Shown here piece by piece: positions 1 to 51,340 of a stretch of 64,000 bases of DNA (position 1 is the stretch's first letter; the number at the start of each line of letters is the position of its first letter). Source of the stretch: Torpedo marmorata (taxonomy: Eukaryota); the NCBI GenBank assembly GCA_977017645.1, contig OZ360224.1, positions 80,538,001-80,602,000 of the forward strand, written 5' to 3'. The notes beneath the pieces are model-generated. The model saw only the letters and a program-made list of their open reading frames with translations. It searched no databases and was not told the origin of the DNA. Made by a program: the position numbers and the translations under genes.

Positions 1-2260
1 CGAAAACAACTTATCCCAATCCACACATTCTAGATCCTTTCTCATTTCCTCAAAATTGGCCTTTCTCTAATTTAGAATCTCAACCCGAGGCCCAGACCTA
101 TCCTTCTCCATAATTAACTTGAAACTAATGGCATTATGATTACTGGACCCTAAAATATTCCCCTACACATACTTCTGTCACCTGTCCTGCCTCGTTCCCT
201 AACAGGAGATCCAATATTCCACTCACTCTAGATGGTACCTCTAAATATTGATTTAGAAAGCTTTGCTGAACACATTTGACAAACTCCAAGCCATCCAGCC
301 CTTTTACAGTATGGGAGTCCCAGTCAATATGTGGAAAGTTTAAATCTCCTACTATCACAACCTTATGTTTCCTGCAGCTGTCTACTAGCTCTCTACAGAT
401 TTGCACCTCCAATTCTCGCTGACTATTGGGCAGTCTATAATACAACCCCATGAGTGTGGTCATATCTTTACCGTTCCTCAGCTCCACCTATATAACCTCA
501 GTAGACGAGCCGCTGGTCTGTCCTGCCTGAGCACAGCTGTGATATTTTCCCTGACGAGCAATGCCACTCCTCCCCCTTTCATCCCACCCCCCATTCTATC
601 GCATCTAAAGCAACGGAAGCTTGGAACATTGAGCTGCCAGTCCTGCCCTTCCTTCAACCAAGTTTCACTAATGGCCACAATGTCATAATTCCACGTGCCA
701 ATCCACGCTCTAAGCTCGTCTGCCTATTCTACAATACTCCTTGCATTGAAATAGATGCACTTTAGAAAATTTCCACCACGTACAACCCGTTGACTTCTAA
801 CGATGCATGCAATTTTCACATCATCTTTTCCCTCCTCCACTCCTTTATCTGCTCTGGCACTCTGGTTCCCATCCCCCTGCAAATCTAGTTTAAACCCACC
901 GGAGCAGTACTAGCAAACCTTCCCGCAAGGATATTAGTCCCCCTCCAGTTCAGATGCAAATCGTCCTGTCAGAACAGGTCCCACCTTCCCTGGAAGAGAG
1001 CCCAGTGATCCAGAAACCTGAAGCCCTCCCTCCTGCACCATGTCTTTAGCCACGTGTTAAGCTGCATTATCCTCCTTTTTCTAACCTCATTAGCACATGA
1101 CACGGGTAGCAATCCTGAGATCACAACCCTGGAGGTCCTGTCCTTCAACCTCGCACCTAACTCCCTGAACTCTCCTTGCAGGACCTCCTCGCCCTTCCTA
1201 CCCACGTCATTGGTCTCTATATGGACCACAACATCTGGCTGCGCACCAACCCTCCTGAGAACGCCATGAACTTGATCTGAAGTATCACGGACCCTGGCAC
1301 CAAGGAGGCAACATACCATCCAGGACACTCGATCTCTTCCACAGAACCTCTTATCTGTCCCCCTAACTATGGAATCCCCTATCACTACAGATTGCCTCTT
1401 CTCCTCCCTTCCCTTCTTAGCCACAAGGCCAGACTCTGTGCCAGAGACCTGATCTCCGTGACTTGTCCCTGGTAGGTCATTTCTCCCCCCCCCCCCCCCC
1501 CTATCAGTATCCAAAACGGTATACGTGTTATTGAGGGGAACTGCACTGCCCTGCACTGACTGTCGGTTACCTGTCCCTCTCCTGACTGTCACCCATCTAC
1601 TTTCCTCCTGCCTCCTAGGTGCGACAGCATCCCTGTAACTCCTGTGCATCACCCCCTCTGCCTCCCGAATGATCAGGAGTTCATCCAACTCCAGTTCCCT
1701 AACTCGGTTGATGAAGGGCTCAAGCCCGAAACGTCAGTTATGTATTTCTACCTTTGCTACATAAAAGACACTGTTTGACCTGCTGAGTTTCTCCAGCATT
1801 GTGTTTTTTACTTCAACCACGGTGTCTACAGATTTTCGTGTTTTATTTCCCTAACTCGGTTTGTCAGGAGCTGCAGTTGGATGCACTGCTCGCAGATGAA
1901 GTCGTCAGGGATACTGTTGACTTCCCTTATAATCCACATCCTGCAAGAGGAGCTTGTCCCTGCCCTTGCTGCCATTCCCACTATCTATGAAATAGGAACA
2001 AAATGTTCAACAAACCTGTCCTTACCTGGCCTCAACTCCTGCATCTTCTCCTCAGTCTCTGCTCACCAAAGCCTCTCGAGTCAAAGCCTCAAAGTCCCAC
2101 TCCTACCCTGAGCCGCTCACACACTGGCTGCTCTGCTTGTGCTTCCCCTCTTTTATTGGCTAGAATTAATTGGCCAATGGAGAGATTCAAAAGAACACTT
2201 ACCGATCCCGCTGCCAATTTATCTGCTTGGAACCTGCTTACTTTGCCCCTCGCTCGCAGC
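1..2260 (-). mobile_element. CR1 LINE, 5' part: ORF1 (Zn-finger/leucine zipper + SGNH esterase) and start of ORF2 (APE endonuclease); degenerate
   Basis: ORF 969-1688 has VVIGDSIVRG...VVVHIETNDVG (CR1 esterase). The upstream part from the ATG at 1975 reads SSSCRMW...FICEQCIQLQLL. ORFs 140-678 have AISETWL, GGGVALLV, VGDLNFP, ILDLLL (APE). Frameshifts and a premature TGA before DDLHLN. Confidence 0.9.
1710..1846 (+). mobile_element. Solo Penelope pLTR fragment inserted in CR1 ORF1
   Basis: Near-identical to 42785-42922; flanked by direct repeat TTCCCTAACTCGGTT (1695-1709, 1847-1861). Confidence 0.9.
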
Positions 2261-9514: not shown

Positions 9515-11515
9515 GTATGTGACTGGTGCAAGCACATCCGACATACAAAAGAATATCTCGACTTTGGAGATGGAGAGCGACGGCTACAATTCTGCAGTGC
9601 AAAATGCCTCAATCAGTACAAAATGGACATTTTTTATAAAGAGACACAGGCCAATCTTCCTGCTGGCTTGTGTAATACGGTGCACCCTCCAGTAGAAAAA
9701 AAGTCCGATAACACAGCCGTGCAACTACTAACTCCGGAGTCTTGGAACATGCCACTGACTGATGCTCGGAGAAAGCCTCCATCTCCCGTGACACCTTCCT
9801 CTCAGTCTCAAGTCCCCATCCCTTCTGCATCTACTGCCCTCTCCCCGTCTGATCCTGCCAGTAGTTCTGCTGCCAAACTCCACACTCCAATCTCGAAGCC
9901 AATAGCTGCAAATGAGAGTCCAAACGTTCCTCCGATCCAGCTTCAGCAGCCAGCCAACATTGTGCCTCCAGTGGGTGTCCCTCCAGGTAATCCCTCCATG
10001 GTCATGACAAATCGAGGACCTGTCCCTCTGCCAGTATTCATGGAACAGCAGATGATGCATCAGATCCGTCCACCATTTATCCGAGGACCACATACTCCAA
10101 GCCCAAATAGTCCCCTGTCAAACCACATGATTTCAGGTCTTGGTCCCCCATCGGGTGGTTCCAGGACCATGGGTCCTAATTCAATCCCGATGCACAGGCC
10201 AATGCTTTCACCACATCTCCATCACCCATCAGCACCCTCAGTGCCAGCCAATCATCAAGGGTTACTTCCCCCGGCAGCACCCTTACCTAATGTTTCATTT
10301 CCACCTGTTAATATGATGCCAAATAGCCACATGCATGTCCCACACCTTTTAAACTTTGGAGTGCCATCACTTGCACCGTTAGTTCCTCCTCCGACTCTCT
10401 TGGTGCCCTATCCTGTCATTGTTCCATTGCCTGTGCCCATTCCAATCCCCATTCCAATTCCTCACATGTTTGACTCCAAGAACACCAATGGGATTTCCGG
10501 TAGTGCTGAGAGTTTCATTCCAAGCACAACTAACAATGAAGATGACACTAAAGAGCCAAACAGTTCTTTGGCATCGAATCTCGGGCAGCAGGGAGCTTCC
10601 AAGCCTATTAAAGCCTCAACTAACTGCTCAAGCCATTCTTTGAACCAGCCATCCATGCTTCTTGACACCAGCAGGAGTGAGATTGTCGATCTAACTGTCA
10701 AGCCTAATGGTCCAATTAAAAGTGATTTTTCTTTCTCTGATGGAGTGGACTTTCTACACGATGAGGTGATAGACTTGACCATGAGCCACAGAAGCAGACT
10801 TAATCACGTTGGTCACAAACCTCTACATGCTTCTGTGAAAGTTGAAAATGAAGGCAGAAGTGTTGTAGATTTGACTCTTTCCAGTCCGGATAAACGGAAC
10901 TGTATTGACTGTAGGGATTTTCCTCATTTGAACCCTATCGAAACAAAGGTGTTATCTTGCAGCGGTGCTTCCCACTGCAGCACTCTCCAGCTAAATTCAG
11001 GAAGCTCGGGAGGTGACTCGGATCAAACACCTTGTAATCTGGTTATGAATGGCACAAAGAACGTGGACCTTTCCCACTTCTCAGAAAACCCTTCAGACCA
11101 GCAGCAGCAGCAGTCACAGCCACCGCCACAGCAGCAGCCACCGCCGCCGCCGCAGCAGCAGCCGCAGCAGCAGCTGGAGGAGATCGCTGTCAGCGAGCTG
11201 GAGTCAGTCAAAGAAAACAACTGCACATCAAACTGTCAGCTGGAGTTAGAGGCAGGTAAGAAGGCCTCAATTGAATCACCCCTGGGTGGGGTGGACAGGC
11301 AGGATGTAAATCATAATCCTGCAGATGAGGACCATGCATATGCCTTGAGAGTAGTACCCAAGACGGGCTGCTTGATTCAGCCTGTGCCAAAAGCGACTGA
11401 AAAGACTGCCATAGCACCCTGCATAACCTCAACGCCAATACTCAACACAGGGCCCGTGGACAGTGAGCCGCCACTGAAACGCAGATGTCTCCGGATTCGA
11501 AACCAGAACAAGTAA
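9515..11515 (+). CDS. SOBP: Sine oculis-binding protein homolog, large last coding exon (second FCS zinc finger, Pro-rich region, SIM-like motifs, C-terminal NLS)
   Basis: Acceptor ...TTCTGACCACAG|GTA at 9514/9515, in frame with ORF 9623-11515. Reads [49 protein letters not shown]...[25 protein letters not shown]...[15 protein letters not shown], recognised as vertebrate SOBP. Upstream exons not seen in the window. Confidence 0.97.
11099..11173 (+). repeat. Coding CAG/CCG trinucleotide tract (polyQ/polyP) in SOBP
   Basis: Encodes [25 protein letters not shown]. Confidence 0.9.
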
Positions 11516-14500
11516 AGGTTTGTTTTGAAATGCGTTTACAAAAGCCTGAAGGCAGCACATATTGAATACAAACGAAGACACAAAGAGACGTATCTATCTG
11601 CCCACTCTGACTTTGAGCATTGCAACAGTCATTAATTGTATTTTTTTTAAAAGCCTCTGGTTTAAAGTTAATTGGCTCACGATTTTTCCTCCAAAAAGGT
11701 TTTAGCCACCTGACTGAAAGTTGTTTCCACTGGTGATCAAATAGATTATTTAGCGATTTGAAACATGTGACTTGCGCAGTGGCAAAGCTCATTGATGTTG
11801 CATTCTCTTGGGTATGCTGATTAATCATGAGTTTGGTGTGGATTTCTCACACCATTTATGGACCTTCTATGGAAGGAAACCTGGTCTTTCGTCAATTGAT
11901 AGAAATATGGTAGTATTCCGTTTAATATACAAGGTTACGAGGAATGAACATTTGATTTTCTTGTACACTTGATGTATTCTAGATACAGCATTTTTGTCAG
12001 TTTATATTCTGATGATAGGTAGAGAAAAAGCAAACACTCACTCAAAGATCACAATTATCACCATGGCCTTTCTTATCAATCTTAAAAAGTTGACAACAAT
12101 ATTAATAATACATTAGCAAAAGTTCTTAAAACATGGATGTTGAGTTCACGTGGACAACAATTATATTTTTTTTGACATGGTTCTCATTGAGTTTGCTGAA
12201 GAGATATACCCCTTAAACAGCCATATGATTTGGACCATATCTGGTATTAAACTGAACAATGCAGAAAAAGAAGAAATGGAAATCATGTTTTGATCATTAG
12301 ATTGACACCAGTGCAAAATCTCATAAAATTAAGATCGCAAATGTCGTTGTCATGATTATATGTTTTAACTAATATTTGCCTTCCTTAAACTCCCATTAGT
12401 TTGTCAAGGGAATATGAAGAATTTTTTAGAGAAACCAATGATGGTACTAGGGAGCTAATATGACCAGAAAGGACACAGTTTTGCTCTTTGAGGCAATTGA
12501 CAGTGAAAATGGGTGGGCTGAAAGGATTGGTTAAACTGACAGGACTAATATAACTCAAGCCTCTGGTTCAAGTAAATTATGTAGAGTGCTCTTCATATGC
12601 AGGTCTAGTAGCACACACAATATGAATTTGCAGTAGAAAGGACAGATTTAAAGTGATGATACCATTTTTATTGCCTGTAATTCCAGCTGAGATCCTTAGT
12701 GCTTAACATTTCCTTTATTTTACATCATGAAAATGGAAGACTGACTTGCGATATCGCCGGACATAAGTTCACGGGCTAAATTTTTTATGTGGGATGGTTT
12801 GAAATGCTTCACCACTTAAAAAGGCAAGTTTGTGTGTGCTGGCTTTTCAGAATGTTGTGGATGGCAAAGGAACCTATGGAGAGAGAAAAGTAAAAGGTGG
12901 GGTGGATTAGACATATTCTCCCATATATAATTAAATGCCATTATGAATAGAATGCAGTGTTCCAACAAGTGCTTGGTAAAGAATGTTCTTCATTGAAATA
13001 GTTTGCAATTCTATTTACATGGGAATGTAAAACCTGAAGGTAGGCATCAGAATCATAAATTCAGTAGTTCCTTGAAAATAAAGCTAAGAAAGTTAAAATT
13101 AAGGTGTGTCTTAATTAGAAGCAAGTATAAGTAATCAAGCAATGGGTGAAAAGGAGTTTGACTGAATTAGGATACAGGCAGCAAGGTTACTTTAAGCCTG
13201 AATAGAGGAGCAAATAATTCAGTCCTTCATGGGACATGTGCATCACAGCCAAGGCCATCATTAATTGCTCTTAATTGTCACCTGCCTTGTTGATTACTTC
13301 AGTGGAGAATTAAGAGCCAATCACATTGTTGGTTCTGGAAGCTATGTATAAACCAAGGGAGGAAAGCAAATTTTATTTCCTGAAAAACATTGGTGACATG
13401 GGTTTCGCTGCGGTCTTATTACAGAATCCAGCTCTTTGAAATTAAATTCTCCGATTCTAACTCAGCATTTCATGCTTGTCCAAAAGCAACCACAATGCTA
13501 CCTTATGGCTTTGGGGACGTGGACAGTATTTCTGTATTTGAGCCAGTGTTAGTTTTTTTTAATATTTATGATCATGAAACCAACAAACTTTCAGACCACT
13601 TCACTAATAAATTAATAAAATAGCCTTAATTGGGCATATTCATATGTAGAAATTTGAATGTTATAAAATGGCCTGAAATGAAGATTAATGTCATCCATTA
13701 AAAATTATCCATTAAAAAGAGAGCATTCAGCTCTCTTGGTTGACTAAGGATAGCAGAGTAATTATTTCATATGACCTGAGTAAAGTACAAACTAAGCTGT
13801 TGAATAAGATAACTGTATTGCTGAGTTCGACCTATTCTTGTGCTAGAAACTAGATGCATACCTTTGCTATACTACAGCAAGTTAATAACATTATGTGTTG
13901 CAGTTTTTGCAAGTACTAATTGCAGTTCATCATTATACAAGAAAATACATAAATCTATAAACCTAAAGTATTACAATGTTATTTGGATTACATTATGAAA
14001 TTTTAAATACATTAGGTTTTCTTAACATGATACAGTCAATGTCAGATAATTGTTTTACTGAATTTGTGTTATACAATGATTTTAAAAGGAATTGAGCATT
14101 CTTTTCAATGTGCTATTATCTGGATGGGTGAAAAGTTTAATTTGTAGTCACAACTTTGCTTTGAGAGAAGTGAACTGTAAATCACCAGTGCTTCGGTCAG
14201 CTTTAGCCTTCAGTCTGCTCAAACATGCAGATATAGCTTAATGGGCTGTCAAACTTCAGAGTTGCAGGATAAAGTTTGAATTTGTAAATAACCTGCTTCG
14301 ATCCCACATTGTGCCTTGTCCTTGATGAAACAAATTATTTTGGAGTTGTTTAAACTTGGAGGTTTTTTTTTTCTGGTGCAGTAGGGATTTTTAACTGGTT
14401 AGTTCACAATATACAGACCAAACATCTGCTGCAGTGTTACACCAGGAAATGATGATTGGGTCAGATGAAGATGTTGAGCATGGTCACTGGCATGGACCAG

Positions 14501-17075: not shown

Positions 17076-18722
17076 GAGTTGCATGGAGAGTTCACATAAA
17101 AAATGGCTTGAGTTTCCATTCCTCAACATCGCCTTAACTTCCTATCCCTGCACTTCTCCCCTATCATAGCCACCACAAGCCTAGCATCTGACTCCACTGC
17201 ATACTATTACAGTAAGTTGCAGGTTTGATGTCCTTTGTAGTTGTATGTGAAATATTATCTACAGTTGCTGCCTTTCAATTTCCACTGACTAAATGTGATT
17301 TTTCTAACTTGTTAACTAGTATTTCACTGTTTATCGAGTAGCTTTATTGCTGAGTCCAGTTCAATTCAACACCCTGCTAAGATTGCATATGAACCTACCA
17401 AAGAATCCCTACAGCATGGAATTGGGTGTTTTGTTTCAACTGCTGGTCCATATGAGCTTCTCAAGTCGTCAAGTCAAGTCACCTTTATTTGTCGTTCATT
17501 ACCATATACACAGTAAGATGAGGTAGCGTTTCTCCAGGACCATGGGCAGATGTACATAAATATCATAATACAATTAAAAAAAACTATAACATGCTAATAC
17601 ACATATATATCAAGAAATTGAGGAGCCTGATGGCTTGGGGGGAAAAACTGTTGCACAATCTGGACGTACGATCCCGAGTGCTTCGGTACCTCCTTCTAGA
17701 TGGCAAAAGGGAAAAAAGTTTACCAAAGGGGTGTGAGAAGTCCTTCACAATGTTATCAGCCTTCCTCCTGCATCGTGTGTTGTAATGTCCGTCATGGTGG
17801 GAAGAGAGACACCAATAATTTTCTCCACTGACCCCACTATCCTCTGCAGGGTCTTTCGGTCCCAAACCAAGCGATGATGCAATTTCTCAGAATACTCTCA
17901 ATACATCCCCTGTAGAATGTAGTAAGGATAGAGGGTGGAAGATGAACTTTCCTCAGCCTTCACAGGAAGTAAAGACACGGCTGGGCTTTCTTGACTATAG
18001 AACTGGTGTTGAGGGACCAGGTGAGACTCTCCGCCAAGTGCACTCCAAGAAACTTGGTACTCTTTACGACCTCAACGGTAGAGCCGTCCATGGTCAATGG
18101 AGAATGATCCCCCCGGGCCCTTCTGAAGTTGACAACCAACTCTTTCGTTTTATTTACATTCAGATGCAGGTTGTTGGCTCCGCACCATTCCATTAGCGAC
18201 TGCACCTCATCTCTGTATGCTGACTCATCATTCTTGCTGATAAAGGCCCACCACGGTCGTATCATCAGCAAACTTGATGATGTGATTCGAGCTGTGTTTT
18301 GCTGCACAGTCATGAGTCAGCAGAGTGAACAGCAATGGACTAAGCACACAGCCCTGGGGAGCCCCCGTGCTCAATGTAATTACCTTAGAAGTGCTGTTTC
18401 CAATCCGGACTGCCTGAGGTCTTCCCGTCAGGAAGTCTAGGATCCAATTACAGAGGGTGTTGTTTAGGCCCAGCCCGCTCAACTTCCCTATCAGGTACTG
18501 AGGTATGATCATGTTGAATGCCGAGCTGAAGTCAATAAACAGCATTCGAACATACGCGTCCTTATTTTCCAGGTGGGTGAGGGCTAGGTGGAGGGTGGTA
18601 ATGATGGCATCATCCGTAGAGTGGTTTGATCTATATGCGAACTGCAGGGGGTCCAGTGAGGGGGGGCAGCAGAAGCCTGATGTGCCCCATGATGAGCCTC
18701 TCGAAGCACTTCATGACAGTAG

Positions 18723-19333
18723 CACTTCACTTGTACATCCAGAGGACTTATTTACTGCATCCGGTGCTCCCTTTGTGGCTTTCTATACATTGGAGAGACC
18801 GGTCGTAGATTGGGAGATCGCTTCGCTCAGCACCTCCGCTCGGTTCGCAACAACAGCGACCTCCCAGTGGCCAACCATTTCAATTCTGGGTCACACTCCC
18901 ACACTCACATGTCTGTCCATGGCCTCATGTACTATCCCACCCAGACTACCCGCAAACTGGAGGAACAACATCTCATATTCCGTCTCGGCACTCTCCAGCC
19001 AGATGGAATTAACATTGACTTTTCTGCTTTCCACTAAACCTGCTTGTTGTTCCCTTCCCCTCCCCCCTCACCTGTCCTTCCTGTGTTTCTCCAGCTACCC
19101 AGCCATCCCTCCTCCCCCTCTTTGCTACTGTCCCCTCCCTCCTTTCTCCACCTATTATCTCCTGCCTTTCCCACCCCCCTTCCCCCCTCACTCCTTTGTT
19201 CGGACGTCTGCCGGCATTTTCTCATACTTTGAAGAAGGGCTCAAGCCTGAAACGTCGGTTATGTATTTCTACCTTTGCTACATAAAAGACACTGTTTGAC
19301 CTGCTGAGTTCTCCAGCTTTTGTGTTTTTTACT
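18723..19333 (+). mobile_element. 5'-truncated Penelope-like insertion (GIY-YIG end + pLTR)
   Basis: Near-identical to 45938-46543; flanked by TCATGACAGTAG (18711-18722, 19333-19344). Confidence 0.92.
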
Positions 19334-19578
19334 CATGACAGTAGATGTGAGTGCGACAGGGCGGTAGTCATTGAGGCAGGACACTGTCGACTTCTTCGGC
19401 ACGGGGATGATAGTAGCGGATTTGAAGCACGTTGGAACCACGGCACTGCTCAGGGAGATGTTAAAGATGTCGGTAAGAACATCAGCCAGCTGGGCCGCAC
19501 ATCCCCTGAGCACTCTGCCGGGAATGTTATCTGGACCAGCAGCTTTCCGTGAGTTAACCTTACTTAACACTCTCCTCA

Positions 19579-19751
19579 CATTTTCTCATACTTTGAAGAA
19601 GGGCTCAAGCCTGAAACGTCGGTTATGTATTTCTACCTTTGCTACATAAAAGACACTGTTTGACCTGCTGAGTTCTCCAGCTTTTGTGTTTTTTACTCAT
19701 GACAGTAGATGTGAGTGCGACAGGGCGGTAGTCATTGAGGCAGGACACTGT
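19579..19751 (+). repeat. 173-bp local duplication of 19215-19387 (pLTR end + LINE flank)
   Basis: Direct copy at offset 364, sharing private variants (GAGTTCTCCAGCTTTTGTG). Confidence 0.9.
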
Positions 19752-22519
19752 GAAACACAGCACCTGATCATTTGGAGGAGGGGTTGTCTTCTTTGCCGCT
19801 ACATCATTTTTCGCCTTAAAACGCGCGTAGAAGTTGTTCAGTGCATCTGGGAGGGAGGCATCACCAGCACAGTGTAGTCTTGTGGTTGGTGATATCTTGA
19901 ATGCCCTTCCACATGCGTCACATGCCCTTGCTGTCCCGAAAGTGACTCTGAATTCGCTGGGCATGTGCACGCTTTGCCTCCCTGATGGCCTTAGACAGCT
20001 TGGCTCTCGCAATAGCTAGGGTTACCTTGTCGCCCGCACTGAAGGCAGAGTTTCGGCTCCTCAGCAGCACACGCACCTCTGCAGTCATCCATGGCTTCTG
20101 ATTAGAGTGAGTAATGATGGTCTTGGGCACAGTGACTTCGTCAGTACACTTACTAATGTCACTGATGCCGTATACTCCTCCAGATTGATGCAGTCGCCAT
20201 CGGTTGCTGCTTCCCTGAACATGTGCCAATCAATACGCTCAAAGCAGTCCTGAAGTGCATGGATGGCACCTGCTGGCCAGGTTTTAACCTGCTTCTGAAC
20301 TGGTCTGGAGCATCTGGCGAGCGGTCTGTATGCTGGGGTTAGCATTACAGAGATATCCGAGGTGGGGGCGGGGCTCCGCCCGATACGCGTCGAAATGTTC
20401 GTAAACACAAGGTCCAACGTGTTCGCCCCTCTCGTAGCAAAGTCCACATACTGATGGAATTTAGGTAGCCCTGACTTGAGGTTCGCCTGGTTGAAGTCCC
20501 CAGCGATAATCAGCAGTCCATCAGGGTGTGTGGTCTGCAGTTCGCCTATAGCCCCACACAGTTCCCAGATCGCCTCCTTGGCATTAGCGCTGGAGGGGAT
20601 GTACACTCCAACTATGAGGACAGTGGTAAATTCCCGTGGTAGGTAAAATGGTCTACATCTGACAGTCACAAATTCCACCAGTGCTGAGCAGTGACTGGAG
20701 ACTAGTACAGAGTCCTTACACCATTCTGTGTTGATGTAAACACACAAGCCACTGCCACGGACTTTTCCACAGAGAGCAACATCTCTGTCAGCCCGAAATA
20801 AAGCGAGTCCATCCAGCTGAATGGCGGCGTCCGGGACCCTGTCGCTGAGCCACGGTTCAACAAAGACCAAACCACAGCAGTCCCTGTACTCACGCTGCGC
20901 AGACCTCTGGAGTTGGATGTGGTCCATTTTATTCTCCAGGGAACAGACGTTGGCGAGCAGGATGGATGGGAGAGTCGGGCGGCAGGGGTTCGCTCTCAGT
21001 CTAGCGCGCACCCCCGCTCGCTTCCCATGCTTCCTCCACCTCGCACACCGCTTTCGTCTTCTCCGCGATCCCGAGGCTTTAAAGTCTAATCCCCGCAGCA
21101 GCCCGTGGTCGCGTAGCTTGACCCGCAGATCTTCCCGGAGGTAAGTAGAGGAGTTTCTGAGTATTTTTAAAGACTAAAGACTGAAGAGTATGGTCTCCGA
21201 TCATACTCTGTTCCACATCACCCTTCCATCTTTCTATTCCTTGTACCCTTGCATATTTATGTAGCCTGATCATTAATGCATCTAAGCTCTTCACCTCAAG
21301 TACTCCATGAAATTGTAGGCTGCACCTTATAACTGTTCCCTGGGTAATGAGAGTTCCCCTGCATTCCAATTAAATTTACTAGTGATTATTAATATTTATA
21401 TCCCTTGGTATTTGATTTCCCCAAACATAGAAATATCTTCGCTATGCTTGTCAAACACCTTTAAAAAGAGAACTTGCACAAAGTTTTTTCTTTTCAGTCT
21501 GAATTCAGCCTCCAAACTTTTTTCCTCCTTCTTTAGTGTCTCTATACCTTTTTGTAATGTGAAGACCAGAGCTGTACATTGTGAATTAGGTGCTGTGGAG
21601 TCCACCACATCTAGACTACTCAACAGGTCATAAGCAATGGAACAAGACTGCACAGTATTCCACAGAAATAGTTGCTCCAAACACTCAATTTATTTCCAGC
21701 TGTTTGAGGAGTTTTGGCATTTCCAACGGTACAGTAGAATAAATCAACCGATCTGGAAGAAAATACATGACCAGCTGTCTGTCAAATCTGCATTGCAAAC
21801 AACAGAACCAAAGTGCGGTAACATTTGTGGTACTTATATTTTCTTCACAAATAATTCGTTTGAATGACTGCTCACAGTGAAAATCTTAAACAGATGTTTA
21901 AAATGGATTTCACTTCCTTCTTCATCGTAGTCTTAAAAAAAACTTAAATATTCTTATTTCTCTGCTTTAGTGAATGTATTCATTTGTCATACATTACTTG
22001 TCCTAACATTACTTTCCATTCCAAATAACACCTTGGCATTTTGGATAACACATTCTAGGAATGGTATTCAATATCTTTCCTAGAATGTGATACCCAAAAT
22101 TGCATACTGTGCAATTGTTCTGTACAAAATTACCTTTGTTTACTATTATTCTGAATACACATTATAAACCTAAAATGATGATTTTTTTTGTAAGATATGT
22201 CTACATATTTGAACATCTTTCAGTTTCTATCATTCTTTGCTTTTCCTCACAAGCTAACATATCCCTGCCCTACCCAAACACAATTCTATCTGTTGCCCTT
22301 TCACTTCTGAGTCTGCCTTCCTCGATTCCTGTACTATCCTCTTTAATGTTAACCTGGACCCCAAAAGCCCTCATGTTTTTATATTGTGTCCCAGACTTCT
22401 TCCACATCATCTCTTTCTGCCCATTTCCGAATGCTAACAATTACCTAAAAATAAATGCACCTGATGAGTTAACATCTTATTGGCGTGACAATTTATTGGC
22501 TAAACTGTGCACAAATTGA

Positions 22520-22635: not shown

Positions 22636-23318
22636 ATGATGTCAGTTTAGTTTCCAGAAATTCCATACCGGATAGTGAAGTCTTTACATGTTGCTGTGTA
22701 CTAGCAAGAAGTGTGTACCTTGACCTAGGTGTGTCACTCTCTCTCAATCAGAAGGCCATTCAACAGGTCTACTACGTGCTGCACTGAAGGAAGTTACCAC
22801 ACTCCTGCACATCTTTATGGTTTTGAAGTAGTTTAACCTGCCAGTTTAATCCTTGTTGAATCTTTCAGCATTTAATTGCTCTCCTGGGCAGTGGCAAATT
22901 AGTTTGAATTATAATCATGCCAATCTCTGTTTTCCTTGTGACAGATTTAATGAAATGATTTGGTGATTTTTTTTTATTAGTTCTTATTTGACAAGTAATT
23001 TTGTAAAATCAGCAATTAGTGAGCACTGTCCAAATGGGTGGGTGTTATTACCAATTTAATTTTTCAAGAGAACTTGAATTTGTATAACATCTTTCACCAT
23101 ATCAGAATAATTGTATCAATTCACAGCAATGAATGAATTCATCAGGAACCCAAAACACTAACAAAGAGCAATGATTAATTTTGGTGCTTTTGTTTGAAGG
23201 GTAAAAATGTTGGCTTGGTCACCCATATTGCTATCCTTTTGTTTTGAATATTCTGATATTGTATGTGCGCCTGATGTACCTTAAGAAACAGAGAGACCCA
23301 GGTTTCCATGTGTATAGT

Positions 23319-23557
23319 AAAAACACAAAAATGCTAGAGGAACTCAGCAGGTCTCGCAGCTTCCATAGGAGGTAAAGATATATGACCAACGTTTCGGGCC
23401 TGAGCCTTCCTCATTCACACACCTTGAGGAAGGGCTCAGGCCCGAAACGTCGGTCATATATCGTTACCTCCTACAGACGGTGCAGGATCTGTTGAATTCC
23501 TCCAGTATTTCTGTGTTTTTACTGCAATCACAGCGTCTGCAGACTTCTGTGTTTCAC
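23319..23557. mobile_element. Non-autonomous PLE fold-back element (two inverted pLTR arms)
   Basis: Arms about 23319-23413 and 23425-23520 are reverse complements; TSD TCCATGT(G/T)TATAGT at 23305-23318 and 23558-23571. Confidence 0.9.
23421..23454 (+). ncRNA. Minimal hammerhead-like ribozyme motif (PLE type)
   Basis: ACC-TTGAGGA-A-GGGC TCAG GCCC-GAAA-CGTC-GGT: variant core, stem II, palindromic ACGU stem III, GUC cleavage triplet, 3-bp stem I. Confidence 0.6.
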
Positions 23558-26500
23558 TCCATGTTTATAGTTCCCTGAATGTGGCCACACAGGTCAGTAG
23601 GGTGGTGAAGATGGCATATGGCATGCTTGCCTTCATCGATTATGGCATACAATGTGAGAATTGGGATGTTATGATGCAACTTTACAAAACACTGGTTTGA
23701 CCGCACCATAGAGTATTGTGCACTGATCTGGTGGGTACACTCTAGGAAGGATGTGATTGTACTGGAGAAAGTGAAGAACAGATTAGTGTAGATGGGTAAA
23801 AGGTTCAGCATGGCCATAGTGGGTCGAAGAGCAAGTTTCTGTGCTGTATGACTCTAAATTTGCGTATGTTCTATTGGTGCAGCACCCCCTACATCGATCT
23901 GATTTTGTCTCTGAAACAGACTGTTAACTCATGGGCTTAGGACTAAGAGGCAAGAGTGATAACTGTAGCTCAAGCCTGACACTACTTGCCATTCCATAGC
24001 AAGGTGCAGAGTTCTCGGTCAACCAGTATCATCATATTTAGATTTGGCTGCGTGTTCTAAACCTATGGCCGAATGTGGTTTTGTGCTTCACTCAAGGTCA
24101 AACATTATATTCCAGTGGAGAACTGACACCAAACATATTATGAACTTTAAATGGGATGCTAAACGCAGTTTAAACCTAACCCAAATAGTGATACACCTGA
24201 ACAGCTAATGCATATATCTAGGTTGTGGAACTTGCAGCTGATTTATGTTGAATTTAATCTCAACATTACATCTTCTAGGACCTGCTCTCCTCTAAGCAGA
24301 GTGAGACAGGCCAGTGTAAATTAAACCTACATGTCAGTCTATTCATACAATTTTTATTTCCTACAATTCAAAAATTGCACACGGACACTTTTATCCACAT
24401 GTTTTTGGGATGTTCCATTGTTAACATTTGTTGTTCACCCCTAAGGGAAGAGTAACCTTCAGTTCCTTCTATAGAAGGAGTGCCCACATGGCTGTTAGGA
24501 AATGAATTCCAGCATTTAGCCCCAGCAACAATAAATAGCAATATCTCAGTCAAGCTGACGTGTTGCTGTCCTTGTACATTTAGGTGGTCGAGTTCACAGG
24601 TTTAAAGTGCTTTTGAAATCTTGGTGAATTGATGCTTAGCTTCTTGAGAAATATGGATATTGTCTGGTAACCACTAACGATGGCAACCATTGTTCATTGG
24701 TAGTGGAGAGAGTGACTGTTTAGGGTGTTAGTTGGGGGAGTGATCAAGCGGGTGGCTTTCTCCTGGATGATGTTGAGCTTCTCAAGTGTAGGATCCAGGT
24801 ACACGAAGAGCATTCCATCACAATCCTAATTTGTATCTTGAAGATAATGGGAGTCATAAAGTGATTTGGTCTTGGGTCATTTCTTCTAATTGTGGTATTT
24901 ATTGGCTCATCCAATTAAGTTTCTGGTAAATGATAACTCAGAATGTATTGAATGTATTGTTGAATATCGGGGAGGTAATTGACTACTACTTCTGACATGA
25001 AATTATAATTGTCCATGTTCTCATGGCTTGTCTCTGTGTGCCCTCGCATAGTCCTCACTTTATTGACCAATGTTTTTAGCACGTTGCAGATGTTACATTT
25101 TGTGTTTATCCTGATTATATTTAAAGTGCAGCTGTTTAGGTACGTTTCCTGATGACCCTCATTTGGGATCTTAACAGAATAATTCCTCCTGTGAGCCACA
25201 GAACATGAGGGGAGTGGCTTCTGATAGCCAGCAGCAAAGAACCCAGCTAATGTCCAGCAGTATTAATCAGTGATGAACATAGTTCAGTGCTTTGATCTGG
25301 AGAAGGTAATGTGCAACCCTGATATGCTAATTAAATGGATATTTGTTCATAAATAGGCACAGCATTGGTTTTCAGTGAATTTTGAAATCTAAAATGGCAC
25401 TGGAGTGCAGTGACTTCTTTCCAATGTCTGGACACCAAGCAAAACTAAGCTTTTCACAGTATATTGGTACATATGATAATAAACAATATATCTAAATTAT
25501 TGTCAATGGTCTCTACCACTCCACACCTCCCTTTTTACCTCATTATTTCCACAAATATACTACGGGTAAATACTGGGCCAATTGGAAATCACTTCCACCA
25601 ATCGGTGAGGAAACAGTTCCATAATCCTGACAATTAGGAGAGAACTTGCCTTCAATGACTGGGTCAAACACAACCATTAATGGAGGATCATTTGCCAAGA
25701 AATGCATTGGAAGGTCAAAAAGTAACAACCAAAAGCAAAATGAGTGAATCCTCCAATGAATGTGGTAAATCACAACCCTCTGCATTAATTAACCAATTTT
25801 ATATAGCAGTGGACACTATTTATCCACTAATGCACTGACTCAGATTTTGTGGTCGACAGTGATCCTTGCAGTTCCACTTGCTCATTGTACCTGTTCTTGC
25901 CCATATGTTTTGTGGAGTTTTGCACTGGAAGTTATGGTGTTTATAAATCTGATTCCGCACAGCCCTTCCTCTTAGGGTGTCTGTATTCTGCAATTTCCCA
26001 CTGTAACAATTACATGTATAACCACCACATTTTACCAATTTCCAGGATAGATAGTGGACAACTGTCTTCGTAGAATTAAAATGATAAACGCTGTAAATTC
26101 TCAGTGGTCAGATGGCAATGTTGGGGTGATGAAATTCAGAGGGAAGATTATATATTGGCACCACATCATCATTCATGGGTAGGTCATATAATACCTATGT
26201 CATTTGAAGTTTTATTAGGGAGGAAGTGACCAATCATGATGCCAAAGTTCAAATGAAGCAATAGGTTAGTACAAACATTAGAGACACTGAGATTAATGCA
26301 ATAAAATATCCATAATGGGATTAACAGTTGACAATAAAATTGAGGAATTGTTTATTGTCATATGTACCAAGATACAGTAAAAAGCCTTGTTTTGTGTGCT
26401 ATCCAGGTAAGTCAACTCATACAATGGGCAGTGCAATAATAAACATCCAGTGTAATATTACATTGTGAAATGGTTCAGAGCATAGAGCAAAGTACAAGAA

Positions 26501-41414: not shown

Positions 41415-42522
41415 ATGTAACTCATGATTTGTGTGTGTACAGGGCAGTATAAGTACAAGTGACTCCCAACAAGGTTAAACTGTTTGTGCTTATCATAAAC
41501 GTGATGGGACACCAACAGAAATGTGAAGGAAAATTGCTCTATTTATGATTGTTATAATTGCAGAAATCAGTTCTATTAATAAAGCATTTGGAAAGGTGGT
41601 AAATAAGAACATCTGCAGATGCTGGAGTCTAGTGCAATACACAAAAGTGCTGGAGAATCTCAGCAGGTCACGCAGCATCCATAAGAAGTAAAAGGCAGTT
41701 AGCATTTCAGGCCTGAGCCCTTCATCAAGATTTTCAAAAATCAGGCAGATGCCTGAATAAAAAGTTGGCAGAAGGGGAAGCACAGTCTAACAGGTAAGAG
41801 GTGATAGGTAGATACAGGTGGGAGGGGGAAGTAGAGAAAGAAGCTGAGGTGATAGTGGAGAGGGCAGAGGTCTAAAAATGATAGCTCTTTGATAGAGGAA
41901 GGAAAGGAAGGGAAGGGGCTGGTGAGCTGGAGGAGAGGGATGAGGGAAAGGGTGAGATCGGAGGGAGGGGGTTAATGGAATTGGAGAAGTCACTGTTCAT
42001 GCCGTCTGATTGCAGACTACCCAGATGTAATATAAGGTGTTGTTCCTTCAGTGTGTGGGTGGCCTTATCTTGGCAGTATATGAAACCATGTCAGTGTGGC
42101 AATGATGTGTGGATTGAAGTGGCTGGCCACTGGAAGGTCCTTGCTGTTGCAGCAGACAGAGCGAAGATGGTCAATGAAGCGATTTCCTCCAATCTCCACC
42201 CAGTCTCGCCAAAGTAGATGAGGCCACATCAGGAGCACTGGATGCAGTAAATGACCCCCAACAGATTCAGAAGTGAAGTGTTGCTTCACTTGGAAGCAAC
42301 AGTGGTCAGGGAGGAGGTGTAAGTGCAAGTGTAGCACTTCTTGGGGTCACAGGGGTGAGTACCAGGGGATTGGTGGGAAGAGATGAGAAACGCGGTCATA
42401 GAGGGAGCAAGCCCAGTAGAAAGAAGAGAAGGGAAGATGTATCTGGTAAAAAACACAAATGCTGGAGAAACTCAGCAGGTCAAACAGTGTCTTTTATGTA
42501 GCAAAGGTAGAAATACATAACC

Positions 42523-42550
42523 GACGTTTCGGGCTTGAGCCCTTCATCAA
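42523..42550 (-). ncRNA. Minimal hammerhead-like motif in inverted pLTR
   Basis: Reverse complement TTGATGAAGGGCTCAAGCCCGAAACGTC. Confidence 0.55.
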
Positions 42551-42784
42551 AGTATGAGAAAATGCCGGCAGGCATCCGAACAAAAGAGTGAGGGGGGAAG
42601 GGGGGTTGGCAAAGGCAGGAGATGATAGGTGAAGAAAGGTGGGAGGGGACAGCAGCAAAGAGGGGGAGGAGGGATGGCTGGGTGGGTGGAAAAAACAGGA
42701 AGGATTCACCTATCATCTCCTGCCTTTGCCACCCCCCCCCCCTTACTCCTTTGTTCGGACACCTGCTGGCATTTTCTCATACTT

Positions 42785-42812
42785 TTGATGAAGGGCTCAA
42801 GCCCGAAACGTC
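42785..42812 (+). ncRNA. Minimal hammerhead-like motif in 5' pLTR
   Basis: TTGATGA-A-GGGC TCAA GCCC-GAAA-CGTC. Confidence 0.55.
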
Positions 42813-42964
42813 GGTTATGTATTTCTACCTTTGCTACATAAAAGACACTGTTTGACCTGCTGAGTTTCTCCAGCATTTGTGTTTTTTACTTCAACCACTG
42901 TGTCTACAGATTTTCGTGTTTTACTTCTGAATTCTACAACAACTCTGTGAAAACTCTTTGAGGG

Positions 42965-45900
42965 ATGCCTACCCTGAAGAAGTTCGCCTTTGCTCTCCGA
43001 AGGGAGTTCTGTGGGATTCTCTCTCACTGCTCCCCATCTGCAACCCCTGCTGCTCTCAAGCTCTACGACCATGTACTCACCCAGACTCGATTCCACAGCC
43101 ACGCTGCCTTCCTTGCTACTTGCCTCCGCCGCCATCTTGTGCCTCGTGGCTTCCAGCTTCGATTCCAGGCCTCGCAGTTTGGCCCTCGCAAGGACCTCAG
43201 GTACCTCCACAGCATCGACTGCTGCTCTCTCCGCTTCTCCCAACGACTCCTCCGCACCACCCTCACCTCGATGCGGAGATACTAGCGGCAACTTGCCCTC
43301 TACCTGCCACAGCTCCGGACCTCGCTGGCCATGGCCTGCAGCGGACCCCTCCTATACTACATCCGCTGCCGGATCCACGCGTTCAGCCGCCGGCTCTACA
43401 CTCACCTGGCGTCCAACAAGAACCATAAGCTTGCCTCCCTCAAGACTGCAGCCTCTGCGACCCATCTCGGCCTCGGCCGCCTGCCCTCTGGAGCTCCCAA
43501 CGCCATGGCCGCCGACCCGATCCCTGGTCCCGGCCGCTGTCTCACCGGAGCTCCCAATGCCACAGCCGCCCACTCCTACCCGCGCCCCGGGCGCCAACAC
43601 GACGGTACTCCTGACGCCACGGCCGCCCACTCCAGCCCGGGCCCTGAGCACCTACTCACCAGAGCTCCCGATGCCTCCACTGCCGACTCCCGACACAGAC
43701 TTTTACCTGCTGGAGCCTCCCACGCTGACTGCCACTGGAGTCCTCATCTCGCTACTGGATCCCACTTACCTATCCCCCTCACTACTCCTTCCCTATCCTC
43801 CTACACCTCTCACTACTCCACCCCCATCTCCCCCTCTCTGCCCCCTCTCCTCCCCAACCCTCAGACCTCATCCCCCCCTCTCTCTGGCTACCCTCCCTAC
43901 CCCACTCTCCCACCCTCCTACACCCCCCACCTCCGACCCCCCCTCCCCCCACCAACACCCCTCCTCCTCCCTCCAACCTCCCCCACCCTCCACCTTCCCC
44001 CTCTGACCTCCCCAATCCTCCCCCTCCCCCCAACACCCTCCACAACACCGATTCCCCACTCCAACCCCGGCTTGGTTTTTACTATCCCCTCCGACCTTCC
44101 CCTCTCTGAGACGGAGCGCTCGGTCCTCAGTAGAGGCCTCACCTTCGTCCCCCTCCGCCAACACCTCAACGAGTTCTGCGCACGCCGTGATGCCGAACTC
44201 TTCTTCCGTCGCCTCCGCCTCCGGGCTCACTTTCATGACCGTGACTCTCCACCCCCCACCCAAGACCCTTTCTCCCACTTCAAGCCTTCTTCCTCTTCCT
44301 GGACACCTCGTCCTGGCCAGCTGCCCGCTCTGGACCTTTTTATTTCCAACTGCCGCCGAGGCATCAACCGTCTCAACTTCACCACCCCCCTCTCGTATTC
44401 CAACCTCACCTCCTCAGAACGGTCTGCCCTCCACTCTCTCCGCAACAATCCCAACCTCACCATCAAACCCGCAGACAAGGGCGGTGCGGTTGTGGTCTGG
44501 CGCACTGACCTCTACCTTGCCGAGGCCAGTCGACAGCTCTCAGACACCTCCTCCTACCGACCCCTCCCACAGGATCCCACCACTGCACATCAAGCCACTG
44601 TCTCCAACACCATCTCCGACCTCATCACCTGCGGTCACCTCCCCTCCACGGCCACCGACCTCATTCTCCCCCACCCCCGCACTGCCCGTTTCTACCTTCT
44701 ACCCAAGATACACAAACCCAACCATCCAGGCAGACCCATTGTTTCTGCCTGCTCCTGCCCCACCGAACTAGTTTCATCTTACCTTGACTCCATCTTTTCT
44801 CCCTTGGTCCAATCCCTCCCCACCTACATCCGCGATACCTCACATGCCCTCCATCTCCTCAATGACTTCAGATTCCCTGAACCGGACCGCATTATCTTCA
44901 TCATGGATGTCCAATCCCTTTATACCTCCATCCCCCACACAGAAGGTCTGAAAGCACTTCGCTTCTTCCTGGACAAAAGACTCGACCAGTCATCCTCTAC
45001 CACCACCCTCCTCCGCCTGGCAGAACTTGTCCTCACTCTCAATAACTTCTCCTTCAACTCATCCCACTTCCTCCAAATCAAAGGAGTAGCCATGGGTACC
45101 CGCATGGGTCCCAGCTACGCTTGCCTGTTTGTGGGCTTTGTAGACCAATCCATGCTGCAAGCCTACACAGGCAAGACCCCTCATCTCTTCCTCCGTTATA
45201 TCGACGACTGCATCGGGGCTGCCTCATGCACCCGCGATGAGCTTGTCAACTTCATCCACTTCGCATCCAACTTCCACCACGATCTCAAACTCACCTGGTC
45301 CATCTCCGATAACACTCTCCCCTTCCTGGATCTCTCTGTCTCCATCTCAGGAGACAAGCTTTCCACCGACATTTACTACAAACCCTCCAACTCCCACAAC
45401 TATCTGGACTACACTTCCTCACACCCTGTCCCCTGCAAAGATTCCATCCCCTTCTCTCAATTTCTCCGCCTCCGCCGCATCTGTTCCCAAGATGAGGTGT
45501 TCCAGTCCAGATCTTCTGAAATGTCTGCCTTTTTCCACAAACGTGGCTTCCCTTCCACCACTATCAACTCAGCCCTCACCCGCATCTCCTCCGTTTCCCG
45601 CTCATCTGCCCTGGTCCCCTCTGCCCCCAGATGCAACAAACATAGAATCCCCCTCATCCTCACCTACCACCCCACCAGCCTCCGCATCCAACACATTATC
45701 CGCCGGAATTTCCGGCACTTACTACAGGATCCCACTACCAGACACATTTTTCCTTCTCCTCCCCTCTCGGCCTTCCGTAGGGACCACTCCCTCTGCGATT
45801 CCCTCGTGCACTTATCCCTCCCCACCCATCGCACCCCCGGCACCTTCCCCTGTGCCCGCAGGAGGTGCAACACCTGCGCCCACACCTCCTCCCTCACCAT

Positions 45901-46252
45901 GGTCCGGGGCCCCAAACAGGCCTTTCAAGTGAAACTACACTTCACTTGTACATCCAGAGAACTTATTTACTGCATCCGGTGCTCCCTTTGTGGCTTTCTC
46001 TACATCGGAGAGACCGGTCGTAGATTGGGAGATCGCTTTGCTGAGCACCTCCTCTCCGTTTGCAACAACAGCAACCTCCCAGTAGCCAACCATTTCAATT
46101 CCGAGTCACACTCCCACACTCACATGTCTGTCCATGGTCTTATGTACTATCCCACCCAGACTACCCGCAAATTGGAGGAACAACATCTCATTTTCCGTCT
46201 GGGCACTCTCCAGCCAGATGGCATTAACATTGACTTTTCTGCTTTCCACTAA
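42965..46252 (+). pseudogene. PLE reverse transcriptase + GIY-YIG endonuclease ORF with one in-frame TAG (43283-43285)
   Basis: ORFs 42965-43285 and 43331-46252 are in the same frame. Motifs IKPADKGGAVVV, FYLLPKIHK, MDVQSLYTSI, GVAMGT, RYIDD, Cys linker CARRRCNTC, LIYCIRCSLCGFLYIGETGR...RFAEH. Confidence 0.93.
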
Positions 46253-46437
46253 ACCTGCTTGTCGTTTCCTTCCCCTCCCCCCTACCTGTCCTTCCTGTTT
46301 TTTTCCACCCACCCAGCTATCCCTCCTCTCCCTCTTTGCTGCTGTCCCCTCCCTCCTTTCTCCACCTATCATCTACCTTTGCCACCCCCACCCCCCTCAC
46401 TCTTTTGTTCGGACACCTGCTGGCATTTTCTCATATT

Positions 46438-46465
46438 TTGATGAAGGGCTCAAGCCTGAAACGTC
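46438..46465 (+). ncRNA. Minimal hammerhead-like motif in 3' pLTR
   Basis: TTGATGA-A-GGGC TCAA GCCT-GAAA-CGTC. Confidence 0.55.
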
Positions 46466-47309
46466 GGTTATGTATTTCTACCTTTGCTACATAAAAGACA
46501 CTGTTTGACCTGCTAAGTTTCTCCAGCATTTGTGTTTTTTACTTCAACCACGGTGTCTACAGATTTTCGTGTTTTACTACAAGATGTATCTGGTGCAGGA
46601 AATTGCCGAGAATTATATACTGGATGCAGAGGCTGGTGGGATCGTAGGTAAGAACAAGGGAACCCCTATCCTTGTTGCATCTGGGGACATGTGTGCGAAA
46701 TAGACTCCCACCTGTATCCACCTCTTTCCTCTTACCTGTTTGTTTGTGCTCCTCCCCCTCCCTGCCCCCCACCCCTACCTTTTTATTCAGCCATCTGCCT
46801 GATTTCCGACATTCCTGATGAAACGCTCAGGCCTAAAACGTGGGCTGCCTTTTAATTCCGAGGGATGCTGCGTAAATGCTGAGTTTCCCCAGCACTTTTG
46901 TATACTGCTCTAATTTGGAAAGGTGGTATTTTTCCAAATGTATCTCCGAAAGTGGCTTCCCTCAGCCACAATCAGTGAAAAGTGGGTCCTTATGATGCAC
47001 GAACACTAGCGTGGGCCTGAAGCCCCAGATCATGACTGATGTGAACGGGTGCCGCTTCTAGCAGCAGCCTCCCCGCCCAGCTCAGAAAGATGCTAAACCT
47101 GCTCAGTAGTCTTTATTTATTCTTGTATTCAGTCCCAAATCGGATTTGACTGTTAATCACTATTTTAACATTTGAATACTGAAATTTAAAGAGTAATTGT
47201 TTGAAACCCCTCTCCAGTTGTTCTCGCTCCCTACAATGTTGATGACTGGAGAAGGGCAATTTAAGCCACTTTAGTAACACAGAGTATCTCTTCACTTCGA
47301 AACATGCTC

Positions 47310-50582: not shown

Positions 50583-51340
50583 GAGCTATACAGAATGGAA
50601 TCTTTCCCTTCAGTCCAACTCATCCAATCTGACGAGGTTGTTCATTCATAAAAGTCCCATTTGCCTGCTTTTGCCCCACATCCCTCCAAACCTTTCCTAT
50701 CCAAGCACCTGTCTAAATGTCTTTTAAATGTCACATTTATACCCACCTCAACAGCTTCCTCTGGCAGCTTATTCCTATATCCACCACCCTCTGTGTGAAA
50801 AAGTTGCCCCTTTTAAATCTCACGTTAAACCTGTGCGCTCTAGTTTTAGACTCTCCTAACCTGGGGAAAAGACTGACAATTCATTTTATCTATGTTCCTT
50901 GTCATTTGTATTTCTTTATAAGATAACCCCTCAGCCTCCTGTGCCCCAGGGAAAAATGTCCTTGTCTATCCAGCCTCTCCTTATAACTCAAATCCTCCAG
51001 TCCTGGTAACGTTCTCGTGAATCTTTTCTGCACCCTTTCTGCTTTACCAGGGAGACCAGAACTGCACATAGTAATCAATATGTGGCCTTACCAAAACCTT
51101 TTACATATGTAACATGAAGTTCCAACTCCTCTACTCAGTGCCTTGACAAATGAAGGCAAGCATGCCAAAAACCTTTTACACCACCCTGCCTAGCCTTGTT
51201 GCCTCCTTCAGAGTACAATGTACCTGTACCTCTCTGTTCCAGAGCACTTTCCAGAATCCTGCAATGTAGTGTTACATTTCATCTCCCATTCCTTTGCCCA
51301 ATTTCCCCATTGATCTAAATCCAGTTGCAAACTTAAACAA
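50583..51340 (-). mobile_element. CR1 3' fragment (target of the PLE above)
   Basis: CCACCACCCTCTGTGTGAAAAAGTTGCCCC...GACCAGAACTGCACA...ATGAAGGCAAGCATGCCA. Confidence 0.8.

What the first reader, a model, noticed from the sequence alone, without database searches (positions are those of the whole stretch)
23319..23557. Non-coding fold-back retroelement with hammerhead motifs on both strands
Seen: a 239-bp insertion with its own 14-bp TSD, made of two inverted pLTR arms (about 95 bp) around a short loop, each arm holding the ribozyme-like motif. Similar older fold-backs occur at 16180, 47310 and 52690. Inferred: either a repeatable by-product of PLE integration or a self-propagating retrozyme-like hairpin family whose transcript in either polarity is a rod-like RNA with a ribozyme motif. 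It lies just downstream of SOBP coding sequence, so it could give dsRNA or small RNAs.
Basis: partly seen in the sequence, partly recalled or inferred. Interest (0 to 1): 0.7.

Follow-up and report, generated by a model that had tools for sequence, protein, structure and literature searches.

The report
Head-to-head Penelope retrotransposon insertion stub
This 239-base hairpin is real, but it is two back-to-back stubs of the end of a common Penelope-type jumping gene with a seam found nowhere else in the genome, so it is most likely an ordinary one-off insertion leftover rather than a self-copying ribozyme family.

Summary
The hairpin and its 14-bp target duplication are real. Both arms are the 3' end (pLTR) of a protein-coding Penelope-like element: 18 of 100 position-ordered copies sit directly behind an RT/GIY-YIG frame. 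One arm carries a 34-nt tail. This inverted-copy-plus-tail layout, and opposite-strand hammerhead pairs, are already published. The hammerheads are predicted inert: U3-G8 core, left copy truncated, about 51 kcal/mol to unfold from the rod. Exceptions elsewhere: one seam rides in a hAT-type transposon (218 hits), and one pair in a younger family shares a seam. Arm 5' ends pile up just before the hammerhead, not at its cut site. Expression was not testable. The scan has reported this kind of stub several times on other DNA of this genome. Already known; low interest.

The parts
23305..23318 (+). Left copy of the 14-bp target-site duplication
   Evidence: 13 of 14 identical to 23558-23571
23319..23413 (-). 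Inverted arm: 5'-truncated pLTR copy without tail, from -30 to +69 relative to the hammerhead cleavage nucleotide (short end, site A)
23384..23413 (-). Truncated minimal hammerhead motif of the left arm (position 3 and stem I 5' strand lost at the seam; one G missing from stem II)
23414..23417 (.). Seam between the arms (a few bases; limits good to about 3 nt); unique in the genome
23418..23523 (+). Direct arm: 5'-truncated pLTR copy starting at about -37
23424..23455 (+). Minimal type I hammerhead-like motif: UUGAGGA core (U3 instead of C3), extra A, 4-bp stem II, GAAA, 2-bp stem III, GUC triplet with predicted cut after 23455
   Evidence: layout as in PMC4209133 section 5
23524..23557 (+). 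34-nt tail, present on one arm only (long end, site B)
   Evidence: 30-40 bp tail in PMC8557442 Fig. 2 legend
23558..23571 (+). Right copy of the target-site duplication
42446..46577 (+). Reference case in the same window: near-complete PLE of a younger sister family with the same fold-back at its 5' end (42446-42924), an RT/GIY-YIG frame (43286-46252), a 3' pLTR with tail, and a 14-bp target duplication
   Evidence: RVT_1 E 2.4e-6, below Pfam's cut-off; GIY-YIG-type and Cys linker motifs read from the translation

Best explanation
The element is the shortest form of a Penelope-like retrotransposon insertion, two 5'-truncated copies of the element's 3' end joined head to head inside one target-site duplication, likely made anew in a single integration event and likely inert since. 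Shown: the arms are the pLTR of an RT/GIY-YIG-encoding family; one arm ends at a fixed short site and the other 33-34 nt further on; the seam is unique. Inferred: the endonuclease nicks both strands about 14 bp apart, each 3' end primes reverse transcription on element RNA, one at each of the two internal start sites that bound the tail, both cDNAs stop early (preferentially just 5' of the hammerhead, perhaps the RNA's 5' end), and host end-joining links them over 0-6 nt of microhomology or a few filler bases. The hammerhead motifs are passengers: in either polarity the antisense arm is transcribed before the sense motif, so the motif is predicted to be zipped into the rod.
For: Parent: 18 of 100 position-ordered loci of this subfamily have the C-terminus of the PLE frame 250-345 nt upstream on the same strand, with YIDD-type RT, Cys linker and GIY-YIG-like segments; the 18 align through the 3' UTR into the arm sequence and end at two fixed sites. 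Continuum: the same 100 loci were classed as 44 with no detected partner, 35 fold-backs and 21 reaching the frame end; after dropping 8 transposon passengers and 1 misclassified locus, 26 of 26 fold-backs have distinct breakpoint pairs, gaps running from -6 to +28, and 18 of 26 have a TSD against 0 of 26 shifted controls. End rule: 23 of 26 have one short and one long end, 3 are unclear, none has two alike; in the younger family 20 of 21 distinct fold-backs do, 1 unclear, and 19 of 21 have a 14-17 bp TSD (counted by hand). Arms of one element share non-consensus letters 53 times against 28 +/- 4 in random pairings, 0 of 2000 permutations (30 loci). Seam unique. Hammerhead fold costs 51.2 and 50.7 kcal/mol in the two polarities. 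Literature: PMC8557442 (inverted 5'-truncated copy plus 30-40 bp tail), PMC11167929 (both strands cut and extended, two internal start sites = tail, ribozyme not needed in vitro), PMC4209133 (dual minimal hammerheads 100-700 bp apart on opposite strands).
Against: Two fold-backs of the younger family share a seam with a 19-nt foreign insert yet have different TSDs (L195, L198), so recopying as a unit is not excluded. L023 and L029 share the minimal palindromic seam (3 loci for the exact 34-mer). The seam search tolerates 1 mismatch in 29 nt in a family about 8% diverged from its model, so a few sister copies could be missed. The arms of this element are only 84% identical over 89 positions with 1 shared variant, so same-template origin is not shown for this copy. 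PMC11167929 found no difference in start site between strands in vitro, which does not explain the strict one-short-one-long rule; PMC3846280 proposes self-priming on an antisense template instead. Only 6 of 44 unpaired arms have a TSD, so that class is not understood.
Confidence: 0.85

Rival explanations
1. Same by-product, different chemistry: one priming event, after which the cDNA (or an antisense transcript) folds back and self-primes to make the inverted arm, as proposed for rotifer Penelope elements.
For: [quoted passage not shown]
Against: It needs the second arm to stop at the other fixed site in 23 of 26 and 20 of 21 cases, which two independent start sites explain directly; 13 of 26 seams have filler bases rather than overlap; both strands are cut and extended in vitro (PMC11167929).
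Confidence: 0.25
2. A non-autonomous fold-back family recopied as a unit by PLE proteins (retrozyme- or SINE-like), the seam changing afterwards by deletion or conversion.
For: All 40 scored of 5947 candidates cover nearly the whole element with shared outer ends; 7569 exact tail-pattern hits; seams cluster in one short zone; the L195/L198 pair.
Against: The 40 were ranked by likeness to a fold-back query, so they are biased; in position-ordered samples fold-backs are a minority with a continuum of sizes; this seam is unique; the L195/L198 seam has only 2 copies, 87.5 kb apart, which gene conversion could also give; the only expanded seam found is carried by a DNA transposon; no tandem same-strand hammerheads.
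Confidence: 0.07
3. An inert stub later used by the host as a dsRNA source (editing, small RNA) in the SOBP transcript.
For: Stable predicted rod; same strand region 11.8 kb behind the SOBP stop, with a donor-like AAG|GTTTGT two bases after the stop, so it may lie in pre-mRNA.
Against: The arms have decayed to 84% identity, like other copies; thousands of similar stubs exist; no sign of special conservation was obtained.
Confidence: 0.04

Closest known systems
EN+ Penelope-like element insertions with an inverted 5'-truncated copy and one-sided tail (PMC8557442 Fig. 2 legend; PMC3846280 Pen2a_Av; PMC2377424 Fig. 1C; passages read)
   Same: Head-to-head inverted pLTR, 30-40 bp tail on one end only, TSD around the whole unit, seam overlap, hammerhead motif in the pLTR.
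   Different: Only the two pLTR stubs remain, with no frame between them; the TSD is 14 bp against 8-10 bp in the rotifer cases.
Minimal type I hammerheads of metazoan PLEs (PMC4209133; passages and section 5 read)
   Same: Short stems, unpaired nucleotide 5' of stem II, 2-bp stem III; the paper reports dual motifs 100-700 bp apart on opposite strands.
   Different: U3-G8 core in 44 of 46 arms that cover position 3; the paper's variant is U3-A8. The two motifs here are about 50 nt apart.
Anolis Poseidon element PAc (PMC11167929; main text parts 1-2 of 4 read)
   Same: Two fixed end sites bounding a tail; hammerhead upstream of them.
   Different: The parent here has a Cys-rich RT-EN linker, which PMC8557442 gives for Neptune and Nematis rather than Poseidon (no tree built); start sites lie outside the surviving frame as far as it could be read.
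Metazoan non-LTR retrozymes (PMC7229834 passages; bioRxiv 10.64898/2026.07.22.740005 part 1 of 5)
   Same: Non-coding, 150-450 bp size class, PLE-related type I hammerhead.
   Different: Retrozymes are head-to-tail tandem repeats with same-strand hammerheads that release monomers and circles; this is a single head-to-head unit with one motif per strand.

Membership tests
EN+ Penelope-like element insertion (truncated) | Sequence is the pLTR/3' UTR of an element encoding RT with C-terminal GIY-YIG endonuclease | tested here: met
   18 of 100 loci
EN+ Penelope-like element insertion (truncated) | Inverted 5'-truncated copy adjacent to the 5' end | tested here: met
   same layout on the full element at 42446-46577
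EN+ Penelope-like element insertion (truncated) | 30-40 bp tail at one end only | tested here: met
   34 nt here; 23 of 26 and 20 of 21 fold-backs have one short and one long end
EN+ Penelope-like element insertion (truncated) | Target-site duplication | tested here: met
   18 of 26 against 0 of 26 controls
Neptune clade | Zn-finger-like Cys motif in the RT-EN linker and placement in an RT tree | tested here: inconclusive
   C-x4-C-x2-C-type linker seen in the window frame and parent pieces; no tree built; Nematis also has the motif
Minimal type I hammerhead | Conserved core C3-U4-G5-A6-N7-G8-A9 / G12-A13-A14 with C3-G8 pair | tested here: not met
   Position 3 is U in 44 of 46 arms; other core letters conserved; left arm of this element lacks position 3
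Minimal type I hammerhead | NUH cleavage triplet | tested here: met
   Position 17 is U, A or C and never G in 60 of 60 arms; U16.1 in 54 of 60
Minimal type I hammerhead | Self-cleavage | not testable with these tools
   Predicted penalty about 51 kcal/mol in the fold-back and 10.6 in the right arm alone
Non-LTR retrozyme | Head-to-tail tandem units with at least two same-strand hammerheads | tested here: not met
   Single unit, one motif per strand
Non-LTR retrozyme | Copies share one unit sequence | tested here: not met
   Seam unique; 26 of 26 distinct
Non-LTR retrozyme | Linear and circular monomer RNAs | not testable with these tools
   No RNA holder listed; only contigs available

The most novel reading that the evidence does not exclude
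Fold-back stubs are occasionally recopied as intact units by the Penelope proteins, with transcripts of the two strands each primed at one of the two fixed start sites, making them the seed stage of a hairpin-type non-autonomous element; the strict one-short-one-long rule and the pile-up of 5' ends just before the hammerhead would then be a genomic record of a two-primer insertion step that starts near the RNA's 5' end and does not use ribozyme cutting.
Probability: 0.15. Interest if true: 0.5.

Novelty: already known. Interest (0 to 1): 0.17.

Why it matters
As a single element it matters little: it is one of thousands of PLE stubs. As a class the stubs are a large natural data set on an open question named in PMC8557442 (how PLE tandem/inverted structures and tails form). 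The end rule and the position of 5' ends can be counted genome-wide and compared with in vitro products, and they argue against hammerhead cleavage setting the template's 5' end. For annotation, such stubs can be mistaken for MITEs, retrozymes or hairpin RNA genes.

Tried and rejected
Rfam: no family at gathering score in the window. Hammerhead cleavage as the cause of truncation: no excess of 5' ends at -2..+4 (5 of 61 against 3.7 expected; 2 of 37 against 2.3); the window's own fold-back centred at the cut site (60504-60650) is the only exact match of its 34-mer, and a gapped version gives 3 loci. Perfectly palindromic seam as a family: 3 loci for the exact 34-mer. L168/L185 as a shared-seam pair: same downstream flank, so one insertion duplicated. 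Alignment artefact for the 5' pile-up: longer copies align through the zone and the 16 unpaired arms there have unrelated upstream flanks, though only 3 of 16 show a TSD. Expression: no RNA holder listed; contigs of 4 runs were laid; the three guessed-RNA runs carry another organism label and pile on the repeat by cross-mapping, so nothing follows either way. One contig of run X1 covers the left flank and about 25 nt of the element, too little to count as bridging. Paper searches with no hit: 'Penelope-like, hammerhead, inverted, shark' and 'Penelope, Neptune, elasmobranch, retrotransposon'; one search listed no PLE paper using 'twin priming' among the 10 of 19 shown. No supplements were read; those of PMC11167929 (Fig. 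S2) and PMC4209133 may bear on 5' ends and core variants.

Full report
Observation. The insertion at 23319-23557 exists as described. Inverted arms of 91 nt at 85% complementarity fold to -148.4 kcal/mol, z = -15.6, with 0 of 200 shuffles as stable. A 14-bp direct repeat with one mismatch bounds it exactly. Each arm has a GAAAC-centred motif on its own strand; Rfam finds nothing in the window at gathering score. The right arm runs 34 nt beyond the region paired with the left arm. SOBP coding sequence (Pfam PF15279, E 1e-95) ends at 11515, 11.8 kb upstream.

What the arms are. The window holds a near-complete element of a sister family at 42446-46577: inverted pLTR, truncated pLTR with tail, a 988-codon stop-to-stop frame with an RT hit (RVT_1 E 2.4e-6, under Pfam's cut-off), a Cys linker and a GIY-YIG-type end read from the translation, a 3' pLTR with tail, and a 14-bp TSD. 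For the finding's own subfamily I took the first 100 of 2257 exact matches of an arm pattern, in position order on contig C1. In 18 of 100 the C-terminus of that frame lies 250-345 nt upstream on the same strand at about 55-85% identity; these align through the 3' UTR into the arm and end at two fixed sites 33-34 nt apart. So the arms are the pLTR of an autonomous PLE family, now broken in the copies seen. The Cys linker points to Neptune or Nematis by the description in PMC8557442; I built no tree.

Family or by-product. The fold-back query returned 40 scored of 5947 candidates, all near full length. In the 30 fetched, outer ends are shared, 21 of 30 have a TSD of at least 11 bp with at most 2 mismatches, and none of the other 29 has this seam; that set is biased towards short fold-backs. 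A profile from 14 of the 18 frame-linked copies (4 left out for poor alignment) classed the 100 position-ordered loci as 44 unpaired, 35 fold-back and 21 reaching the frame end. Eight of the 35 share one seam; all eight start 138-166 nt upstream with the same CAGTGGCGGATT terminus. The seam has 218 exact hits, and in 2 of 14 loci examined the far terminal repeat was in reach, with 8 of 8 and 7 of 8 bp target duplications: a non-autonomous DNA transposon of hAT type (label from my knowledge of 8-bp TSDs) carries that fold-back as a passenger. One more locus (L088) was misclassified. The remaining 26 have 26 different breakpoint pairs and 18 have TSDs against 0 of 26 shifted controls. The finding's seam matches once in the genome at up to 1 mismatch; with about 8% divergence in the family that search would miss some sisters but hardly a large family.

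Results against. In the younger family (70,127 exact hits, first 100 examined), L195 and L198 share a seam with a 19-nt foreign insert, have different TSDs and flanks, lie 87.5 kb apart and are the only two matches. Local recopying and ectopic gene conversion both fit. L023 and L029 share the minimal palindromic seam but differ in arm variants; the exact 34-mer has 3 loci. Only 6 of 44 unpaired arms have a TSD.

Mechanism. Every fold-back that could be typed has one short and one long end: 23 of 26 with 3 unclear, and 20 of 21 with 1 unclear in the younger family (hand count, L185 dropped as a duplicate of L168). Arms of one element share non-consensus letters twice as often as random pairs (53 against 28 +/- 4, 0 of 2000), which fits copying from one source but also later conversion. 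PMC11167929 shows in vitro that a PLE protein cuts and extends both strands and starts at two internal sites that bound the tail. From this I infer two priming events at staggered nicks, one per site, joined head to head. That step is inference; PMC3846280 favours self-priming, and PMC11167929 saw no strand difference in start site. Arm 5' ends pile up 31-40 nt before the cut nucleotide, just 5' of the core: 28 of 61 in the old family (5.3 expected if flat over -104..+10; 93 arms in all, passengers counted once) and 9 of 37 in the young one (3.2 expected, p = 0.004; window chosen after seeing the data). Both arms of the finding end there (-30 and -37), which is why each holds the motif. There is no excess at the cut site. 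In Drosophila Penelope the start site lies in the pLTR 46 bp before the intron (PMC2377424) whose 3' end the hammerhead overlaps (PMC4209133 Fig. 2C legend), so run-off at the RNA's 5' end is a plausible, untested cause.

The ribozyme. The motif has the minimal PLE layout, with N7 variable and position 17 never G in 60 of 60 arms, but U at position 3 in 44 of 46 arms that cover it. In the finding the left copy lacks position 3 and stem I. Forcing the core open with stems II and III formed costs 51.2 (+) and 50.7 (-) kcal/mol, and core nucleotides other than position 3 are predicted paired with probability 0.85 or more. Because the arms are head to head, the antisense arm is always made first, so co-transcriptional folding would not rescue it. 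A fold-back with no hammerhead at all sits at 60504-60650 with its own TSD, so the form does not need the motif.

Expression. No RNA holder was listed and the contigs laid cannot speak to this locus. A donor-like site two bases after the SOBP stop suggests that the element is intronic; this was not tested.

What is known. PMC8557442 (passages) describes the inverted 5'-truncated copy and the one-sided 30-40 bp tail as usual for EN+ PLEs; PMC3846280 and PMC2377424 (passages) show cases; PMC4209133 (passages, section 5) reports dual minimal hammerheads on opposite strands 100-700 bp apart. Retrozymes are tandem, same-strand units (PMC7229834 passages; bioRxiv 10.64898/2026.07.22.740005 part 1 of 5), a test this element fails. 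No supplements were read. Earlier notes of this scan reached the same reading on other DNA of this genome; they are not independent support, and one led me to PMC3846280 and one to the Neptune label.

Verdict. Already known: a truncated head-to-head PLE insertion, confidence 0.85. Interest 0.17. The class retains some value as countable evidence on PLE integration.

Noticed in passing
L246 (G000:C1:57276067-57279101) and L071, L081, L106, L123, L132, L134, L147, L151, L247-L251: A roughly 1.3-kb non-autonomous DNA transposon (CAGTGGCGGATT termini, 8-bp TSD, hAT-like) carries one PLE fold-back near its end; its seam has 218 exact hits.
   Followed up: partly
L195 and L198 (G000:C1:1975333-1977233 and 2062867-2064767): Two young fold-backs 87.5 kb apart share a seam with a 19-nt foreign insert but have different TSDs; only two in the genome. 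Local recopying or gene conversion.
   Followed up: partly
window 42446-46577: Near-complete young PLE with inverted 5' pLTR (100% over 106 nt), long RT/GIY-YIG frame interrupted by a stop upstream, and 14-bp TSD; its family has 70,127 exact pattern hits.
   Followed up: partly
window 60504-60650: Fold-back of a related subfamily with no hammerhead, a 97% palindrome centred just behind the predicted cut site, with a 15-bp TSD; unique seam.
   Followed up: yes
window 1708-1844, 18502-19343, 19581-19706, 41601-41999, 46712-46903, 49694-50585: Further PLE stubs and truncated copies of several ages; 19179-19343 and 19581-19706 share their downstream flank, a local duplication.
   Followed up: no
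window 11513-11523: Donor-like AAG|GTTTGT two bases after the SOBP stop codon, suggesting an intron in the 3' UTR.
   Followed up: no
L061-L160, unpaired arms: Only 6 of 44 arms without a detected inverted partner have an adjacent TSD, against 18 of 26 fold-backs; unexplained.
   Followed up: no
window 22038-22100: A 31-nt near-perfect inverted pair unrelated to the PLE by the profile.
   Followed up: no
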